Shown: piece after piece, positions 1 to 47,494 of the stretch
Position numbering within the stretch: position 1 is the stretch's first letter
Layout: the number at the start of each line of letters is the position of its first letter
Source: Octopus vulgaris
Lineage: Eukaryota
Direction of reading: 5' to 3'
DNA length: 64,000 nucleotides
Assembly: GCA_951406725.2 (NCBI GenBank)
Contig: OX597826.1
Span: 60,512,001 to 60,576,000 of the forward strand
Notes under the pieces: generated by a model
Told to the model about the DNA's origin: nothing
Databases searched by the model: none
The model's input: only the letters and a program-made list of their open reading frames with translations
Program-made: the position numbers and the translations under genes

Positions 1-105
1 GTATACACGTATGTGTGTATATATAATAAGCATAGCTTTGCTATATATATTTATGCACCTGTACTTTCTTCAAAGTGTGTTTATATATATATATATATAT
101 ATATA

Positions 106-473
106 GGCGCAGTAGTGGCTGTGTGGTAAGTAGCTTGTTTACCAACCACATGGTTCCGGGTTTAGTCACACTGCGTGGCACCTTAGGCAAGTGTCTTCTA
201 CTATAGCCTCGGGCCGACCAAAGCCTTGTGAGTTGATTTGGTAGACGGAAACTGAAAGAAGCCTGTCGTATATATGTATTTATATATATGCGTGTGAGTG
301 TTGTGTGGCTGTGTTTGTCTCCCTAACATTGCTTGACAACCGATGCTGGTGTGTTTATGTCCCCGTACTGGGCTTACAAAAAGAATAAGTCCCGAGTTCG
401 AGTTGCTCGATTAAAGGCGGTGCTCCAGCATGGCCGCAGTCAAATGACTGAAACAAGTAAAAAGAATAACGAG
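106..473 (+). mobile_element. SINE family A (tRNA-like head, internal TA/TG microsatellite), near full length
   Basis: Box A-like TGGCTGTGTGG and box B-like GGTTTAGTCAC. Body and tail (GGCGGTGCTCCAGCATGGCCGCAGTCAAATGACTGAAACAAG) recur at 6895-7300, 31421-31824 and in partial copies. Confidence 0.85.
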
Positions 474-504
<31 letters not shown>

Positions 505-865
505 TAGTATGCAACTAGAACATCTTCCTGCCCCACCACTCTGCAGACATCCAGCTGTAGAATGAAAATGGTTATATTTCACCTATATTTCAATAAAGGG
601 AATTGGCAGACGAGACAAAATTTGTACTCTGTATGTATGGTGACCTATTCAGAGAAAGTGTCATCCATATATTATACATGAAGCACATGGATAACATTCC
701 AGTGCATGATACATCCATTATGGAGTAAACGAGAAAGACAAAGCGGTGTGGAAACGAATAAAATAAACCCATGTAGACATTAGATTCTGCGACTAACACA
801 TATGCAAACTATATTCAAAACTACAGCGGCGACGGCAACGATAGCAGTAGCAACGCACACACACT

Positions 866-915
<50 letters not shown>

Positions 916-917
916 AA

Positions 918-1227
<310 letters not shown>

Positions 1228-1228
<1 letters not shown>

Positions 1229-1459
1229 GCGGCGAGCTGGCAGAACCGTTAGCACGCCGGGTGAAATGCGTAGCCGTATTTCGTCTGCCGTTACGTTCTG
1301 AGTTCAAATTCCGCCGAGGTCGACTTTGCCTTTCATCCTTTCGGGGTCGATAAATTAAGTACTACTTACGCACTGGGGTCGATATAAACGACTTAATCCA
1401 TTTGTCTATCCTTGTTTGTCCCCTCTGTGGTTAGCCCCTTGTGGGTAGTAAAGAAATAG
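1228..1459 (+). mobile_element. SINE family B (B1 tail), monomer
   Basis: GGCGGCGAGCTGGCAGAA head, box B-like GAGTTCAAATTC, central GACTTTGCCTTTCATCCTTTCGGGGTCGATAAATTAAGTAC. More than 10 copies in the window. Confidence 0.85.
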
Positions 1460-1491
1460 ATATATTTATATATATGTATATATATATATAT

Positions 1492-1746
1492 ATATATAAA
1501 AAAGGAAATGAAGAAAATGCTGACAAATAATTGAAGTAATTTAAGTAATTTAATTAGGTGAAAGTTCTTTTTACCGGTTGCGCATTTGTTATGCTTATCA
1601 AAATATTTTGATAAGCATAACAAATGCGCAACCGTAAAAAGAACTTTCACCTAATTAAATTACTTAAATTACTTCAATTATTTGTCAGCATTTTCTTCAT
1701 TTCCTTTTTTATATATCACCACTCGTGTTCGACATCTCCTTTTTTT

Positions 1747-1750
<4 letters not shown>
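1492..1750. mobile_element. Fold-back Penelope-like pLTR remnant: 225-bp palindrome plus 34-bp tail, inserted in (TA)n
   Basis: Loopless palindrome 1492-1716 centred at 1604/1605 with one indel, unpaired tail 1717-1750, hammerhead-like motif in each arm. Confidence 0.65.
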
Positions 1751-1785
<35 letters not shown>

Positions 1786-1875
1786 GTACATTGATCTATA
1801 AACGTTGATATACAAGGCGCATGTTTAGCTGTGTTGTAAAACGCTTGCCTCATGATTCCTTGAGGCATGTATGAT

Positions 1876-1990
1876 TCCTTGGGCAAGTGTCTTCTACTAT
1901 AGCTTGTGGTCGACCAGAGCCTTGCTTGTGTGTACGTGTGAGAGGAGAGCGATAAAAAATTCGGTTGCATGAAACTGAAATAATCCCGTC
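1876..1990 (+). mobile_element. SINE A internal fragment
   Basis: CCTTGGGCAAGTGTCTTCTACTATAGC...GAAACTGAAA matches 181-260. Confidence 0.7.
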
Positions 1991-2183
1991 ACAAACACAC
2001 ACGCACACACATATAAAGATAATAATACCCACGCAAATATTTTAAAACGATATATTGAGAACAGTCACTACCTATGAACTTATTCAGAACAATGCCAATA
2101 AGTACAACTACAACCAGAACGGGTCACCTGACCATTTAAGATGATTCCACCAACATCCTACTACTGCCATACTACTCCCGCAT

Positions 2184-2443
2184 TTTTCTTCTTCTTCTTC
2201 TCCTTCTTCTTCTTCTTCTTCTTTTTCTTCTTCTTCTTCTTCTTCTTCTTCATCTATTTCTTCTTCTATTTCTCCTTCTTCTCCTTCTCCTCCTTTTTCT
2301 TCTTCTTCTTCTTCTTCTTCTTCTTCTTCTTCTCCTTCTTCTTCTTCTTCTTCTTCTTCTTCTTCTTCTTCTTCTTCTTCTTCTTCTATTTCTTCTTCTA
2401 TTTCTTCTTCTTCTTCCATTTCTTCTTCTTCTTCTTCTTCTTC

Positions 2444-2505
<62 letters not shown>

Positions 2506-2610
2506 TTCTTCTTCTTCTTCTTCTTCTCCCACTTCTTTTTCTTCTTCTATTTCTTCTTCTTCTTCTTCTTGTTGTTCTTCTTCTTCTCCTTCTTCTTCTT
2601 CTTCTTCTTC

Positions 2611-2646
<36 letters not shown>

Positions 2647-2660
2647 TTCTTCTTCTTTCT
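2184..2660. repeat. Compound (CTT)n/(TTA)n microsatellite
   Basis: Directly visible in the sequence. Confidence 0.95.
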
Positions 2661-3023
2661 CAACTACTACTGCTGCTTAAACAATCAAAAACAAGGATTC
2701 ATATCAAATATTAGGTCTACTACTACTACCTGTGGCCCACTACCTAGAACTCACAAGAGTAAAAAAGAGAGTCGGGGACAGACAGAAAAAAGGATTATGT
2801 CTCTTGCATTTGAAAGCTATGGAAATATTTCTAGACGACTGAGAACAAAGGTTCACCAAAACAGAAGCGTTCTGTCTCTGTTCCTGGTACTACTGAAAGA
2901 TTTAAGGATCCAACCTGTCACCCGCCTGCATAGTGCTGCCATTTGAGCAACGTTAGTTAGTTAGTTAGTTAATTTCGCTCAAAAGCAAATAGCAAGGCCA
3001 TGTAGGGGGACATGGAATGTTGC

Positions 3024-3132
<109 letters not shown>

Positions 3133-3192
3133 GATAGACAGACAGAGACAGATATAGACAGACAGACAAATATTAAGACTACTACTACCTGC

Positions 3193-3653
3193 GATGAAAA
3201 GCAAACTCGACCTCGGAGGAATTTGAGCTCAGAACGTAAAAGACAGACGAAATACCTATTTTTTTACTACCCACAAGGAGCTACACACAGAGGGGACAAA
3301 CAAGGACAGACAATCGGATTATATCGACCTCAGTGCGTAACTGGTACTTATTTAATCGACCCCGAAAGGATGAAAGGCAAAGTCGACCTCAACGGAATTT
3401 GAGCTCAGAATGTAAAGACAGACGAAATACCTATGTCTTTACTACACACAAGGGGCTACACACAGAGGGGACAAACGAGGACAGACAAACGGATTATATC
3501 GACCCCAGTGCGTAACTGGTACTTATTTAATCGAACCCGAAAGGATGAAAGGTAAAGTCGACCTAGGCGGAACTTGAACTCAGAACGTAACGGCAGACGA
3601 AATACGGCTAAGCATTTCGCCCGGCGTGCTAACGTTTCTGCCAGCTCGCCGCC
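3193..3653 (-). mobile_element. SINE B with tandemly repeated 175-bp module (two full plus one partial)
   Basis: GAAATAC anchor at 3249, 3424 and 3599 (period 175); single head at 3600-3653. Confidence 0.85.
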
Positions 3654-3729
3654 GTAGATGGAAATAATAATGTTTACATCTGATGCGTTAAAAATAAATG
3701 CTACACACCTTCTTTCATTGAATCGAACG

Positions 3730-4590
3730 ATAGGGTTTCAAATGACGGAAAAGGTTACCAGCGACATAGCAGCAAAAAGTTAAAATGCCTTAGAACGTTA
3801 CTAGGTACCAAAACATACAGACTGGAGAATTCCAAAGTACATTCGAGGCAGGGCCATGAAAATTTCTAGAAATTTCTAATCTGGCATTGTTAAGTGTGGT
3901 GTGTTGCTGAATCGTAACAAACTCTATGTGTATATAACTGCCGTTGGCCGGGCCTGTCCAAGGTGCACGAACATCGATGAGACAGTTCTGCACGCATTCA
4001 TTCAGTGTCCAATCATTGCTGACTTATACAGTTATATCAAAGAGTAATGAATCCGACTAACCGACAATTTTGTGACATTTTTGTATGGAATATAATATAC
4101 AATTGGCTTAATTAAATTTTTGGAAAGACATTAAACTATCACAGTTCTGGTGGCTCTAACGAAAGATGAGTGATGGGACTTAAAGGGATGAAGATAGGCA
4201 ACTTGTTGCTTATTAAAACCTTCATTAAAGCCCTCATTAAGTATTTCAAGTCACACTTGTAGTGAACAGTGTGAGAGAAGAGCGAAGTGCTACCTTCGAG
4301 TAAATTTGTGGAACGGTAGAAGTGGGCGGTAAGGATGATCTGAGTGGGCGGGCCTGGAATGCGAACTCACCTGCAACTTCAGTGGGGACGATAAAGAAGT
4401 GGCAGTTGCACCAGTGGTCAGAATTACGACAGTGTTGCGGGTTACCCAAGTGCAGCGTTGGGACGTTTCCCCAATTTTGGGAACTTATGTCTTGTTTAGA
4501 TTATGTGTTTCTGTTATTTTGAAAACCCACATTGAACTGTATTTTATTTTATTGTATCGTATTGTCCTGTACCGTCCTTGAGCTTTCTGT
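3730..4590 (+). mobile_element. Degraded L1/Tx1-like LINE 3-prime end
   Basis: 3901-4044 translates VLLNRNKLYVYITAVGRACPRCTNIDETVLHAFIQCPIIADLY, the CxxC-ET-xxH-xxxxC zinc knuckle of L1-clade ORF2. Stops nearby and a T-rich UTR-like end. Boundaries approximate. Confidence 0.7.
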
Positions 4591-15035: not shown

Positions 15036-15045
<10 letters not shown>

Positions 15046-15550
15046 GGCTTAGTAAAATAAATTACTTTGCCGCATACTGAACTCATTAGAAATAGCAGCT
15101 AAAAAACTTTTTTAAAGCTATTTCTAATACTTAAAGAAAATCTCTCTCATATATAGCGTTTGCTTAATTCAACTCACAAAAGTTTGGGGGTAAGGACATT
15201 AAAAAATCAAATGCTAAGGTTATTTGAGAACGTACGTTTCAAGATTAGTCAAAACAACATTTCTATCTTCAGCTCAAAAACTCCTTGGTTTGGATTTGGA
15301 AACACTGAAAGTAAGAACATACCCTTTCGAAGAACATACCCTTTCGAAGGGTATCTTTAAGTATTAGAAATAGCTTTAAAAAAGTTTTTTAGCTGCTATT
15401 TCTAATGAGTTCAGTATGCGGCAAAGTAATTTATTTTACTAAGCCCTTTTATATAATGTAATAATTTGAATTCGCCTTAAATGGTCCCTTTGCATACTGA
15501 ACACTTGGTGAAATTGATTAATAATTAATTAATTTTACCCTCAATTGTTG

Positions 15551-15553
<3 letters not shown>
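15036..15553. mobile_element. Fold-back Penelope-like pLTR element in (TA)n
   Basis: Perfect ~100-bp inverted arms (15036-15137 vs 15354-15455), unpaired ~100-bp right extension, (TA)n on both sides, hammerhead motif in the spacer. Confidence 0.75.
15223..15278 (-). ncRNA. Minimal type-I hammerhead ribozyme motif (canonical core)
   Basis: Minus strand: TTTGAG-CTGAAGA-tAGAaatgttgttttgactaaTCTt-GAA-ACGTACGT-T-CTCAAA. 6-bp stem I, CUGANGA and GAAA core, palindromic stem III, weak stem II. Confidence 0.7.
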
Positions 15554-45921: not shown

Positions 45922-45982
<61 letters not shown>

Positions 45983-46303
45983 ACACACGCATATATGCAT
46001 ATATATACATGGGGAAGTACATTTGTATGGAAGACATTTTTTCTTGAGATATGCATTAAAGCATGACTGTACTTTTTTGCCATGTTTTATTTTTCCCCGT
46101 TTTCGTACGTGCTTCTGGCAATTTCTTTGGAACGGTAAAGTTAACAACTTCATCAATTTTTCAGGCCTTCACCGACTCATCTTCAAGTTGAAGTAATATT
46201 ATCATGTTTTGTTCGCATTCTAAAATTGCCAGGATCAATATCGTCATCCTGACGATGGGATGTTTACTCCATCAGTCGAGTGGTATTATTTGTTTGTGAC
46301 TAA

Positions 46304-46903
46304 GGCGGCGAACCGGCAGAATCGTTACCACGCCCGGCAAAATACTTGGCGGTATTTTGTCTGCCGCTACGTTTGGAGTTCAAATTGTGCTGAGGTCAAT
46401 TTTGCCTTTCATACTTTCGGGGTCGATTAAATAAGTTCCAGTTACGGACTGGGGTCGATATAATCGACTTAATCCGTTTGTCTCTCCTTGTTTGTCCTCT
46501 CAGTGTTTAGCCCCTAAGAAATAGGTATTTAGTCTGCAGCTACGTTCTGAGTTCAAATTCCACTGACGTCGACTTTGCTTTTCATCATTTCGGGGTCGAT
46601 AAATTAAGTACCAGTTATGCACTGGGGTCGATGTAATCGACTTTATTCCTTTTGTCTGTCCTTCTTTGTCCCCTCTATGTTTAGCCCCTTGTGGGCAATA
46701 AAGAAATAAGAAACGTTACCATGCCAAAAAAATACTTAGTGGTATTTAATCTGTCTTTACATTCTGAGTTCAAATTCCACCGAGGTCGACTTTTCCTTTC
46801 ACCTTTTCAGGTTCATAAATTAAGTAGTAATTGCATACTGGGTCGATCTAATCAACTGTCCCTTTCCCTCAAAATTTCAGGCCTTGTACCTAGATTAGAA
46901 AAG
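46304..46903 (+). mobile_element. Trimeric SINE B (B1-B1-B2) with 19-bp TSD
   Basis: Three GAGTTCAAAT...GTC-ACTTT...GGGGTCGAT modules; ATTATTTGTTTGTGACTAA at 46285-46303 and 46904-46922. Confidence 0.9.
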
Positions 46904-46954
46904 ATTATTTGTTTGTGACTAACATATTTTTGTGTATTCATTTTAATATCTTCC

Positions 46955-47010
46955 AATAATCTTCTCACTGGTGTCATATTGAAATAATCTTCTCACTGGT
47001 GTCATATTGA
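46955..47010. repeat. Perfect 28-bp tandem duplication
   Basis: AATAATCTTCTCACTGGTGTCATATTGA occurs twice in tandem. Confidence 0.95.
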
Positions 47011-47199
47011 AATGCTGCCTTAAAGTGCTTGGTCGAGAAAATCGAAGGCATTCCATACTTTGAGAGAGATATATACACTGTCGCCGTCGGGGACATGAAC
47101 CAACCCCTACCGGTTATTCAGCAGTGGGGATACCATATAGACTAACGAATTAAACATACAAACATACAAACGTACACATACACACACTTGTATTGTAGT

Positions 47200-47494
47200 T
47201 TTCTTGGACCGACCCTAACGTTGAGAGTGGGTTTGGTAGATGGAAACTGAAAGAAGCCCATCATATATATATATATATTTCATGTGTCTGTGTCTATGTA
47301 TTTGTCCCTCCATTACCGCTCAAAAACCGGTTTTGGTGTGTTGAAGTACGCGTACAATGCGGTTCGGCAAATCAGTTCGACAGAATAAGTACTAGGCTTT
47401 AAAAAATAAGTCCTGGTCTTGATTTGTTTGACTAAAACCGTTCAATGCGGCGCTCCAGGTTGGCTGTAATCAAATGACTGAAATAAATAAAAGA
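47200..47494 (+). mobile_element. SINE A, 5-prime truncated
   Basis: TTTGGTAGATGGAAACTGAAAGAAGCCC...AGAATAAGTACTAGGCTT...AAATGACTGAAA. Confidence 0.75.

What the first reader, a model, noticed from the sequence alone, without database searches (positions are those of the whole stretch)
1492..1750. 225-bp loopless palindrome with mirror-image hammerhead variants showing U3-A8 covariation
Seen: a palindrome centred at 1604/1605 with one indel, then a 34-bp unpaired tail, embedded in (TA)n. Reading outward from the centre gives TTGATAA-GCAT-aacaa-ATGC-GCA-ACCGGT-A-AAAAG (ACCGGT is intact on the minus strand; one G is lost on plus). Established: C3-G8 is a tertiary Watson-Crick pair in hammerheads, so U3-A8 is compensatory. 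GCAA deviates from GAAA. Inference: a 5-prime-truncated PLE pLTR that self-primed exactly at stem I, with the same architecture as 15036-15553 but unrelated sequence. If transcribed it forms a >110-bp dsRNA hairpin, a possible siRNA or ADAR substrate.
Basis: partly seen in the sequence, partly recalled or inferred. Interest (0 to 1): 0.72.

Follow-up and report, generated by a model that had tools for sequence, protein, structure and literature searches.

The report
Mirror-image stub of a Penelope-like retrotransposon
The palindrome is a short, non-coding, head-to-head double copy of the last 108 bases of a very abundant Penelope-like jumping gene lying in a TA repeat, an arrangement already described for these elements, and the hammerhead-like motif in each arm is likely a weakened relative of a known ribozyme variant.

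Summary
Arms 1497-1604 and 1605-1711 form a loopless palindrome with one 1-base deletion, followed by a one-sided 34-base tail, inside (TA)n.

It is not a unique event. The genome holds 403 exact copies of the tail and 1,817 exact copies of the 30-base motif. Longer relatives lead to a near full-length element with a 765-residue reverse transcriptase plus C-terminal GIY-YIG frame, which is an endonuclease-bearing Penelope-like element (PLE).

Four features match published PLE anatomy: 5' truncation, an inverted partial copy, a tail at one end only, and (TA)n targets.

Its hammerhead reading is partly supported:
- Sister PLE families in this genome carry the same U3/A8 core with a canonical GAAA, different paired helix II sequences and a palindromic loop 3, at the same distance from the 3' end.
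- The U3-A8 variant was already published for Schistosoma PLEs in 2014.
- This family additionally has C at position 13. Rfam and my own covariance model give no significant match, and cleavage is untested.
- "Self-priming" is plausible for symmetric copies but not shown.

Earlier notes of this scan described the same kind of stub elsewhere in this genome.

Verdict: an ordinary new member of a known kind, of modest interest.

The parts
1477..1498 (.). (TA)n microsatellite, left part of the insertion target
   Evidence: One search lists this run. All 29 independent near-identical copies are flanked by (TA)n on both sides.
1497..1604 (-). Left arm: inverted copy of the last ~108 nt of the PLE 3' UTR, without a tail
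   Evidence: It is 100% identical over 115 nt to the 3' end of the 2-kb copy in L061 and complementary to the right arm.
1572..1601 (-). Hammerhead-like motif, intact copy: UUGAUAA, helix II GCAU/AUGC, GCAA, CCGG, U, A
   Evidence: Found by my descriptor scan. The same 30-mer occurs 1,817 times in the genome.
1605..1711 (+). Right arm: the same 3' UTR end in the other orientation, with a private 1-base deletion (CCGG to CCG)
   Evidence: The G deletion is unmirrored in this copy.
1608..1636 (+). Hammerhead-like motif, copy with the one-G deletion in the palindromic loop
   Evidence: It is not picked up by the descriptor because of the deletion.
1711..1716 (+). Internal ATATAT between arm and tail, where the tail-less arm ends in the family
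   Evidence: In 23 of 25 distinct head-to-head pairs one copy ends here, 38 nt before the end of my reference, which includes the T-run, AAA and five (TA)n bases. The other copy carries the tail.
1717..1750 (+). One-sided 34-nt 'tail' (28 nt plus T-run and AAA) at the element's outer 3' end
   Evidence: The 23-mer of the tail has 403 exact hits in the genome and 0 for the control. All 30 sampled tails are followed by a TA-rich microsatellite (one of them interrupted). Its last 18 nt are 83% like the last 18 nt of the arm (D1).
1751..1784 (.). (TA)n microsatellite, right part of the insertion target

Best explanation
The 1492-1750 structure is a dead, non-coding insertion of the 3' end of a young, very abundant Penelope-like retrotransposon (reverse transcriptase plus C-terminal GIY-YIG endonuclease) in a (TA)n microsatellite, and its two mirror-image arms were most likely both made during that one insertion event.

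Shown:
- The arms are the last ~108 nt of the element's 3' UTR.
- One arm carries the family's 34-nt tail.
- The same end piece occurs in the genome as tail-only, simply 5'-truncated, short palindromic, long palindromic and near full-length forms, always in (TA)n.

Inferred:
- The endonuclease nicks (TA)n and reverse transcription starts at the RNA 3' end.
- The cDNA often ends in a short TATAT stretch 3-5 nt upstream of the hammerhead-like core.
- The second arm then arises in one of two ways. Either the cDNA end snaps back or switches template onto DNA already made, or a second cDNA is primed from the other cut strand at the internal UAUAUA.
- The tail-less end is joined to the target through TATATA/(TA)n microhomology.

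The motif in each arm is likely the family's version of the known U3-A8 minimal hammerhead of PLEs. It is probably crippled by C at position 13. In this copy it has also lost the sequence upstream of helix I.
For: Family and parent:
- 722 first-look candidates were found and 40 scored, all 95-100% identical over the whole 249 nt.
- The tail 23-mer occurs 403 times.
- The 30-mer motif occurs 1,817 times.
- L061/L062 hold 1,562-nt inverted arms (99.2%), a 424-nt spacer and the tail.
- A 386-aa frame there has GIY-YIG at E 1.5e-6.
- L108 has a 765-aa open frame with RVT_1 at 30.9 bits, over the cut-off, and GIY-YIG at 22.0 bits (cut-off 22.6). DKG, GxKF and CX4CxxC are visible in the translation.

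Published anatomy (Craig et al. 2021, PMC8557442, passages and section 11):
- 5' truncation.
- An inverted 5'-truncated copy next to the element.
- A 30-40-bp tail, often at one end only.
- (TA)n targets.
- Hammerheads near the 3' ends.

Seen here:
- 29 of 29 near-identical copies lie in (TA)n on both sides. Only 5% of window bases lie in (TA)>=6 runs.
- 23 of 25 distinct head-to-head pairs have exactly one tail and 2 have two.
- 22 head-to-head pairs occur among the first 100 motif hits, with spacings from 36 to 3,847.
- Centres are loopless or hold a few unpaired bases, and two loci show stuttered repeats of the terminal ~14 nt.

Motif:
- 21 of 30 PLE loci carry the U3/A8 core, helix II, G[A/C]AA, a palindromic tetraloop, U and H. 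In 20 of these the motif is on the ORF strand; in L075 it lies on the opposite strand.
- The motif lies 58-115 nt before the (TA)n in 21 of the 23 instances; L078 (319 nt) and the second motif in L081 (242 nt) lie further.
- Helix II comes in three sequence types that all pair (hand count on the 19 distinct sequences).
- My descriptor gives 0.15 sites per 2 kb in 300 shuffles at <=3 core mismatches and 0.023 at <=2.
- U3-A8 PLE minimal hammerheads, and pairs on opposite strands, are described in PMC4209133.
Against: Motif:
- No hammerhead hit from Rfam at E<=10 on 1440-1800 or on the 3.8-kb element.
- No hit at gathering score on 20 PLE loci.
- Rfam also misses the sister motifs, so it is no positive control.
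- A covariance model built from the sister families alone does not find the own-family motif with default filters. With filters off it scores 11.2 bits at E 4.9, no better than noise hits.
- With a loose descriptor (>=2 bp helix I), shuffles give about 10 sites per 2 kb.
- C13 replaces an invariant core base in 96 of the first 100 copies, T in 4 and A in 0.
- Helix I next to the core has only 2 contiguous pairs.

Mechanism:
- Nothing here distinguishes snap-back from dual priming.
- Strongly asymmetric pairs (192 against >=2,012 nt in L084, 560 against >=2,012 in L108, 1,562 against 1,986 in L061) fit snap-back poorly.
- The many copies with one identical centre could also mean that the stub is copied as a unit.

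Clade: no phylogeny was made.
Confidence: 0.88

Rival explanations
1. The 249-nt palindrome plus tail is itself a non-autonomous unit. Once formed, it would be transcribed and copied again by the PLE enzyme in trans, so the many identical copies descend from one palindromic master rather than from repeated new fold-backs.
For: - 19 of 28 copies share exactly the same centre (28 of the 29 selected loci where both anchor 15-mers were found; the set includes L028 and excludes L029), and 5 more differ by one TA step.
- About 10 of 29 independent tail-bearing loci sampled on one contig have their inner boundary in the same 5-nt stretch.
- The copies are nearly identical. In 18 copies there are only 9 arm variants.
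Against: - No substitution distinguishes these copies from the long copies. The left arm is 100% identical to L061.
- Simply truncated copies end at the same site without a second arm (L037), which points to a hot spot.
- Several different small centre variants exist, and palindromes with many other axes exist.
- No RNA data are available.
Confidence: 0.2
2. It is a foldback or MITE-type DNA transposon with long terminal inverted repeats that targets TA.
For: It has long perfect inverted repeats, a high copy number, a small size and TA-rich flanks.
Against: - The arms are the 3' UTR end of an RT + GIY-YIG retroelement.
- All forms share one end and vary at the other, as in 5' truncation.
- The tail is one-sided.
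- No transposase frame was seen in the 3.7-kb parent.
Confidence: 0.03
3. It is a fold-back artefact of sequencing or assembly.
For: Palindromes can arise from chimeric reads. Short-read contigs of four public runs break at the axis and none listed spans it.
Against: - The same structure sits at dozens of loci with different unique flanks.
- It comes with graded arm lengths and small centre variants.
- It matches published PLE anatomy.
- Short-read contigs break at any high-copy repeat.
Confidence: 0.01
4. It is a host hairpin-RNA gene (a small-RNA precursor or editing substrate) rather than transposon debris.
For: It folds into a 107-bp stem at -158 kcal/mol. Rfam gives weak generic microRNA-hairpin hits, all far below gathering scores.
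Against: The microRNA hits are what any palindrome gives. The sequence is a retroelement end present in hundreds of copies. No RNA holder was listed, so expression is untested.
Confidence: 0.03

Closest known systems
Insertions of endonuclease-bearing Penelope-like elements with an inverted 5'-truncated copy and a one-sided tail (Craig et al. 2021, PMC8557442; passages and section 11 read)
   Same: It shares RT followed by a C-terminal GIY-YIG, heavy 5' truncation, an inverted partial copy head to head, a 30-40-bp tail at one end, insertion in (TA)n, and a hammerhead-type motif near the 3' end.
   Different: This copy is an extreme stub: 108 nt per arm, no ORF and no loop. The family's motif is not a canonical hammerhead.
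U3-A8 minimal hammerheads of Schistosoma mansoni Cercyon PLEs (Cervera & de la Pena 2014, PMC4209133; passages read)
   Same: It has U3-A8 in place of C3-G8, G10.1-C11.1, a very short helix III with a palindromic loop, a short helix I, and frequent pairs on opposite strands 100-700 bp apart.
   Different: The host phylum differs. This family has C13 (GCAA), whereas its sister families here have GAAA. No cleavage data exist for any of them. I did not see that paper's figures or supplements.
Neptune/Nematis-type PLE clades (CX2-5CxxC linker before the endonuclease)
   Same: The translation of L108 shows CX4CxxC just before the GIY-YIG, together with DKG and GxKF motifs. The paper links this linker to microsatellite targeting.
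   Different: The clade was not tested by phylogeny. The Hydra clade is excluded on the motifs the paper gives, because it has DKT and CxCX5C where this family shows DKG and CX4CxxC.
5' inversions of LINE-1 by twin priming, and hairpin self-priming of cDNA in classical cDNA synthesis (recalled, not read here)
   Same: Both yield an inverted segment made during reverse transcription at the target, with microhomology at the junction.
   Different: Twin priming inverts a different, more 5' part of the RNA. Here both arms cover the same 3' part, which gives a true palindrome.

Membership tests
Endonuclease-bearing Penelope-like element (family of origin) | Reverse transcriptase domain followed by a C-terminal GIY-YIG endonuclease in one frame | tested here: met
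   L108 has a 765-aa frame with RVT_1 at 30.9 bits (cut-off 29.6) at residues 265-442 and GIY-YIG at 22.0 bits (cut-off 22.6) at 691-730. The L061 copy has GIY-YIG at 28.8 bits, E 1.5e-6.
Endonuclease-bearing Penelope-like element (family of origin) | Insertions 5'-truncated, often with an inverted 5'-truncated copy head to head | tested here: met
   Graded forms are seen. There are 22 head-to-head pairs among the first 100 motif hits.
Endonuclease-bearing Penelope-like element (family of origin) | 30-40-bp tail, often at one end only | tested here: met
   The tail is 34 nt. 23 of 25 distinct pairs are one-tailed and 2 are two-tailed.
Endonuclease-bearing Penelope-like element (family of origin) | Microsatellite, here (TA)n, insertion bias | tested here: met
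   29 of 29 copies have (TA)n on both sides. All 30 tails are followed by a TA-rich microsatellite, one of them interrupted. The background is 5% of window bases.
Endonuclease-bearing Penelope-like element (family of origin) | Direct pseudo-LTRs from partial tandem copies | not tested
   I did not look for partial tandems of this family. One same-strand pair of tail hits 220 nt apart was seen and not examined.
Hammerhead ribozyme (PLE minimal type, U3-A8 variant) | Conserved core C/U3 U4 G5 A6 N7 G/A8 A9 ... G12 A13 A14 | tested here: not met
   The first box is met in the U3-A8 form. The second box is GCAA (C13) in 96 of the first 100 copies, T in 4 and A in 0. Sister families meet it with GAAA.
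Hammerhead ribozyme (PLE minimal type, U3-A8 variant) | Helix II with G10.1-C11.1, kept by compensatory changes | tested here: met
   Hand count on the 19 distinct sequences. Position 10.1-11.1: G-C 16, G-U 1, A-U 1, A.C 1. Position 10.2: G-C 17, C-G 2. Position 10.3: U-A 16, A-U 2, G-C 1. Position 10.4: U-A 18, G-C 1. Only three lineages contribute the changes.
Hammerhead ribozyme (PLE minimal type, U3-A8 variant) | A15.1-U16.1 closing a short palindromic loop 3, then H17 | tested here: met
   This family has A-CCGG-U-A and its sisters have A-CAUG-U-A/U/C. The plus-strand copy in the window has lost one G.
Hammerhead ribozyme (PLE minimal type, U3-A8 variant) | Helix I flanking the core | tested here: inconclusive
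   There are 2 contiguous pairs next to the core, and a 6-bp complement lies 5 nt away in full-length copies. In the window copy that upstream strand is replaced by the other arm. Published PLE motifs have 2-5 bp.
Hammerhead ribozyme (PLE minimal type, U3-A8 variant) | Significant match to a hammerhead covariance model | tested here: not met
   Rfam gives none at E<=10 and none on the sister motifs either. My own model R1 gives 11.2 bits at E 4.9 with filters off.
Hammerhead ribozyme (PLE minimal type, U3-A8 variant) | Self-cleavage | not testable with these tools
   This needs an in vitro assay of monomer and dimer transcripts.
Hydra clade of PLEs | DKT instead of DKG, CxCX5C linker, no CCHH | tested here: not met
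   The translation of L108 shows DKG and CX4CxxC. The criteria come from section 11 of PMC8557442.

The most novel reading that the evidence does not exclude
A PLE lineage that looks currently active, with near-identical copies in the hundreds and an open 765-residue frame, spreads with a hammerhead core that carries U3-A8 and also C13. This means either that ribozyme cleavage is dispensable for Penelope-like retrotransposition, or that C13 is a tolerated new core variant. The recurrent axis 3-5 nt upstream of the core would mark the 5' end of a discrete short 3' RNA that the enzyme prefers to copy, making these hairpin stubs a self-propagating class of dsRNA-forming loci.
Probability: 0.15. 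Interest if true: 0.6.

Novelty: new member of a known kind. Interest (0 to 1): 0.3.

Why it matters
The result turns an eye-catching palindrome into an annotated piece of transposon debris. It shows that the TA microsatellites of this genome are heavily seeded by PLE ends.

Two modest points go beyond routine annotation:
- The U3-A8 hammerhead variant, published for a flatworm, is the standard form in several PLE families of this genome.
- One prolific family has drifted further, to C13. This gives a natural test of whether PLEs need an active ribozyme.

The graded series of stubs also constrains models of how PLEs build inverted copies. The series includes symmetric, stuttered and strongly asymmetric forms, and nearly all carry a single tail.

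Tried and rejected
- Rfam at E<=10 on the window's first 20 kb gave 205 matches. The 150 listed held no hammerhead and 55 were not shown.
- A search for the canonical core (CUGANGA ... GAAA) downstream of the endonuclease gave sense-strand hits in only 2 of 29 loci. The one I inspected (L066) has G at position 17.
- The loose hammerhead descriptor was uninformative, with about 10 chance sites per 2 kb.
- The MAFFT alignment of all 19 motif sequences misaligned the three divergent ones.
I stopped and counted by hand.
- Model R1 failed to find the own-family motif significantly.
- Sequencing runs: no RNA holder was listed.
- The four runs laid are short contigs. They break at the axis and none listed spans the stretch, so they say nothing on expression, editing or the axis.
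- A DNA search of the genome with 15354-15553 returned nothing, not even itself, because common words are skipped. A 33-mer pattern search was used instead.
- The arm-symmetry test for 'copied as a unit' against 'made anew' had too few variants: 2 mirrored and 7 unmirrored in 18 copies.
- My strict inward walk overestimates the unpaired centres of older copies.
- Complex prediction, structure prediction and the large protein searches were not used.

Full report
**Observation.**
The window sequence and the repeat finder confirm a loopless palindrome.
- The outer arms 1497-1574 / 1634-1711 are 78 nt and 100% complementary.
- The inner arms 1569-1604 / 1605-1640 are 36 nt and 94% complementary, with nothing between them.
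- The one asymmetry is a missing G in the plus-strand arm, where ACCGGT reads ACCGT.
- After the right arm come ATATAT (1711-1716) and a 34-nt tail (1717-1750) with no partner on the left.
- (TA)n runs lie at 1477-1498 and 1751-1784.
- As RNA the stretch folds at -158.4 kcal/mol, z = -29.7 against 200 shuffles.

**It is a repeat family, not a single event.**
- A search of the window's own genome (2.80 Gb, 227 contigs; the window is C13:60512001-60576000) with 1497-1745 gave 722 first-look candidates. The 40 scored were all 95-100% identical over the whole 249 nt, tail included.
- All 29 independent loci fetched lie in (TA)n on both sides, with unrelated sequence beyond. Only 5% of the window's bases lie in (TA)>=6 runs.
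- The 23-nt core of the tail has 403 exact matches (192 + 211), against 0 for the reversed control.

**Graded forms lead to the parent.**
The first 30 tail matches on contig 1 are a sample not chosen by likeness to the palindrome. They all share the right-hand end: tail, T-run, AAA, and a TA-rich microsatellite (interrupted in one locus). They differ in how far they reach leftwards:
- tail only (L031, L046);
- simply truncated copies joined to (TA)n (L037, L055, L059);
- palindromes with various axes;
- a 570-bp palindrome (L035);
- longer forms (L039, L053, L041, L054).

Extending L041 showed 1,562-nt inverted arms at 99.2%, a 424-nt spacer and the tail. A 386-residue frame there holds a YLDD box and a GIY-YIG domain at E 1.5e-6.

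Locus L108 holds a near full-length copy, about 3.5 kb, preceded by an inverted 560-nt end piece with the tail.
- Its open frame is 765 residues.
- RVT_1 scores 30.9 bits, over the cut-off.
- GIY-YIG scores 22.0 bits, just under the 22.6 cut-off. This copy's C-terminal residues differ from the L061 copy's, so the domain match is partial.
- The translation shows GxKF, DKG and a CX4CxxC linker before the endonuclease.

A sister family (L074) shows the same RT-then-GIY-YIG order. The family of origin is therefore a C-terminal-endonuclease Penelope-like element (PLE). By the criteria in section 11 of Craig et al. 2021 it is not of the Hydra clade. Its linker is of the Neptune/Nematis type, but I made no phylogeny.

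**Match to published anatomy.**
Passages of Craig et al. 2021 (PMC8557442) describe, for PLEs in general:
- strong 5' truncation;
- partial tandems;
- an inverted 5'-truncated copy adjacent to the element;
- a 30-40-bp tail often present at only one end;
- (TA)n as a preferred target;
- hammerhead motifs near the 3' ends.

Each of these except partial tandems, which I did not examine, is seen here.
- Of 25 distinct head-to-head pairs mapped to a 2-kb reference copy, 23 have exactly one tail and 2 have two.
- The tail can sit on the short inverted arm (L084, L108) or on the long copy (L061, L107).
- Among the first 100 of 1,817 exact matches to the 30-nt motif, 44 form 22 head-to-head pairs. 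Their spacings are 36, 36, 36, 37, 40, 65, 67, 90, 102, 134, 136, 143, 143, 147, 163, 380, 711, 883, 1,170, 2,278, 3,345 and 3,847.
- The window's copy belongs to the 36 class.

**The hammerhead question.**
Negative results:
- Rfam gives no hammerhead hit at E<=10 on 1440-1800 or on the 3.8-kb element.
- Rfam gives none at gathering score on 20 PLE loci.
- It also finds nothing on the better-looking sister motifs, so its silence says little.

A tighter descriptor models the minimal PLE hammerhead: core box 1, a helix II hairpin, box 2 ending in A, a 4- or 6-nt palindrome, U, then not-G.
- In 300 shuffles it gives 0.15 sites per 2 kb (both strands) at up to 3 core mismatches and 0.023 at up to 2.

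The decisive evidence comes from relatives. A Pfam GIY-YIG search of the genome gave 6,136 candidates, of which 150 were scored, and 30 loci were fetched. These are mostly families about 40-65% identical in protein to this one.
- 21 of the 30 carry the same U3/A8 first box; in 20 the motif is on the ORF strand, and in L075 it lies on the opposite strand.
- 19 of them have a canonical GAAA second box. The other two, L084 and L078, belong to this family or its close relative and have GCAA.
- All have G or A at 10.1, a paired helix II, A-CAUG-U or A-CCGG-U, and A, U or C at position 17.
- The motif lies 58-115 nt before the terminal (TA)n in 21 of the 23 instances; L078 (319 nt) and the second motif in L081 (242 nt) lie further.
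- Helix II occurs as GGUUC/GAACC, GGUUUU/AAAACC, AGGG/CCCU and, in this family, GCAU/AUGC.
- One motif (L081, 13-71) has a 5-bp G+C-rich helix I directly against the core and UC at the cleavage site.

My hand count on the 19 distinct sequences gives two-sided changes at 10.1, 10.2, 10.3 and 10.4, contributed by three lineages.

The U3-A8 covariation is already in print. Cervera & de la Pena 2014 (PMC4209133, passages) report for Schistosoma Cercyon PLEs:
- U3-A8 with about 1,300 hits;
- palindromic loop 3;
- conserved G10.1-C11.1;
- helix I as short as 2 bp;
- pairs of motifs on opposite strands 100-700 bp apart;
- low cleavage in vitro.

My search for 'hammerhead ribozyme' + 'U3-A8' returned only that paper. 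The search for 'Penelope-like' + 'hammerhead' + 'octopus' listed only Craig et al.. I did not see either paper's figures or supplements.

Against membership for this family's motif:
- Position 13 is C in 96 of the first 100 genomic copies, T in 4 and A in none.
- Only 2 contiguous helix I pairs adjoin the core.
- A covariance model built from the sister families alone misses it with default filters. With filters off it scores 11.2 bits at E 4.9, like noise.
- That A13 is essential for catalysis is recalled knowledge, not checked here.

I conclude that the motif is likely (about 0.7) the positional homologue of a U3-A8 minimal PLE hammerhead. Whether it still cleaves is doubtful (about 0.15). 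In the window copy the plus-strand motif has also lost a G of the palindromic loop. Both copies have lost the sequence upstream of helix I, because the axis lies 3 nt before U3.

**How the mirror arm arises (inference).**
Evidence that points to a cDNA end reached at a template end, followed by template switching or snap-back:
- In young copies the centres are loopless (19 + 5 + 1 of 28 in the window's class) or hold 1-6 unpaired bases.
- Other axes are also loopless or near so, for example L099 and L045.
- The native sequence at the window's axis provides a 4-nt self-complementary overlap (my reading).
- Two loci repeat the terminal ~14 nt two or three times at the centre (L095, L098).

Evidence that fits snap-back poorly and fits two separately primed cDNAs from the two cut strands:
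- Pairs exist with very unequal copies: 192, 560 or 150 nt against 2 kb or more, and 1,562 against 1,986.

In both models the tail-less end falls at the internal TATATA, which can pair with the (TA)n target. I cannot decide between the models.

About a third of the tail-bearing loci sampled have their inner boundary in the same 5-nt TATAT stretch. One of them is a simple truncation (L037). This could be a hot spot, or it could mean that the stub is copied as a unit. The symmetry test had too few variants to tell: 2 mirrored and 7 unmirrored in 18 copies.

**Other checks.**
- No RNA run was listed for the stretch.
- The four runs laid are short contigs. They break at the axis and continue into the longer family forms.
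- Expression, small RNAs and editing therefore remain untested.

**Second structure.**
The structure at 15036-15553 has the same layout.
- Its family has at least 1,998 exact 33-mer matches.
- It forms same-strand tandem arrays with a period of about 559 bp, capped by inverted copies.
- No PLE frame lies within 1.5 kb in 20 loci.
- My descriptor finds no hammerhead-like motif in it.

**Verdict.**
- The PLE reading is right.
- The hammerhead reading is partly right, and its U3-A8 covariation is already published.
- Self-priming is plausible but unproven.
- Earlier notes of this scan describe the same kind of stub at other places in this genome and in other genomes.
- This is a new member of a known kind. 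The C13 core of an apparently active family is the one feature worth a bench test.

Noticed in passing
window 15036-15553: A second (TA)n-embedded structure has 102-nt perfect inverted arms, a 216-nt spacer and a tail of about 98 nt. Its family has at least 1,998 exact 33-mer hits. It forms same-strand tandem arrays with a period of about 559 bp, headed by inverted copies (for example seven units on contig 1 near 113.46 Mb). No PLE frame lies within 1.5 kb in 20 loci, and no hammerhead-like motif was found by my descriptor. It is possibly a non-autonomous element mobilised by PLE enzymes.
   Followed up: partly
window 1208-1476: A repeat of about 270 nt sits between two (TA)n runs directly upstream of the palindrome. 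It has three related copies at 45971-47263. It looks like a tRNA-derived SINE by eye, which I did not test.
   Followed up: no
whole window: (TA)n is extremely dense: 102 runs of at least 12 bp, 3,246 bp in 64 kb. Many intervals of 230-520 bp between runs are copies of a few repeat families, so TA microsatellites seem to be general landing sites, or products, of mobile elements here.
   Followed up: partly
own genome, loci L069, L074 and others: A sister PLE family shows many copies with an identical 781-residue open frame, which suggests recent or ongoing activity. These copies carry the U3-A8 motif with canonical GAAA.
   Followed up: partly
L081 13-71: This is the best-formed U3-A8 hammerhead-like motif seen. 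It has a 5-bp G+C-rich helix I against the core, helix II AGGG/CCCU, GAAA, CAUG and UC. It belongs to another element at the edge of the locus, whose family was not identified.
   Followed up: no
L105 (contig 1, 66847191-66848078): Two copies of the family's 3' end lie tail to tail (convergent), overlapping in the terminal bases. This is the opposite of the usual head-to-head layout.
   Followed up: no
window 1693-1710 and 1728-1745: The last 18 nt of the tail are 83% identical to the last 18 nt of the arm. The tail may therefore be a diverged duplicate of the element's own terminus.
   Followed up: no
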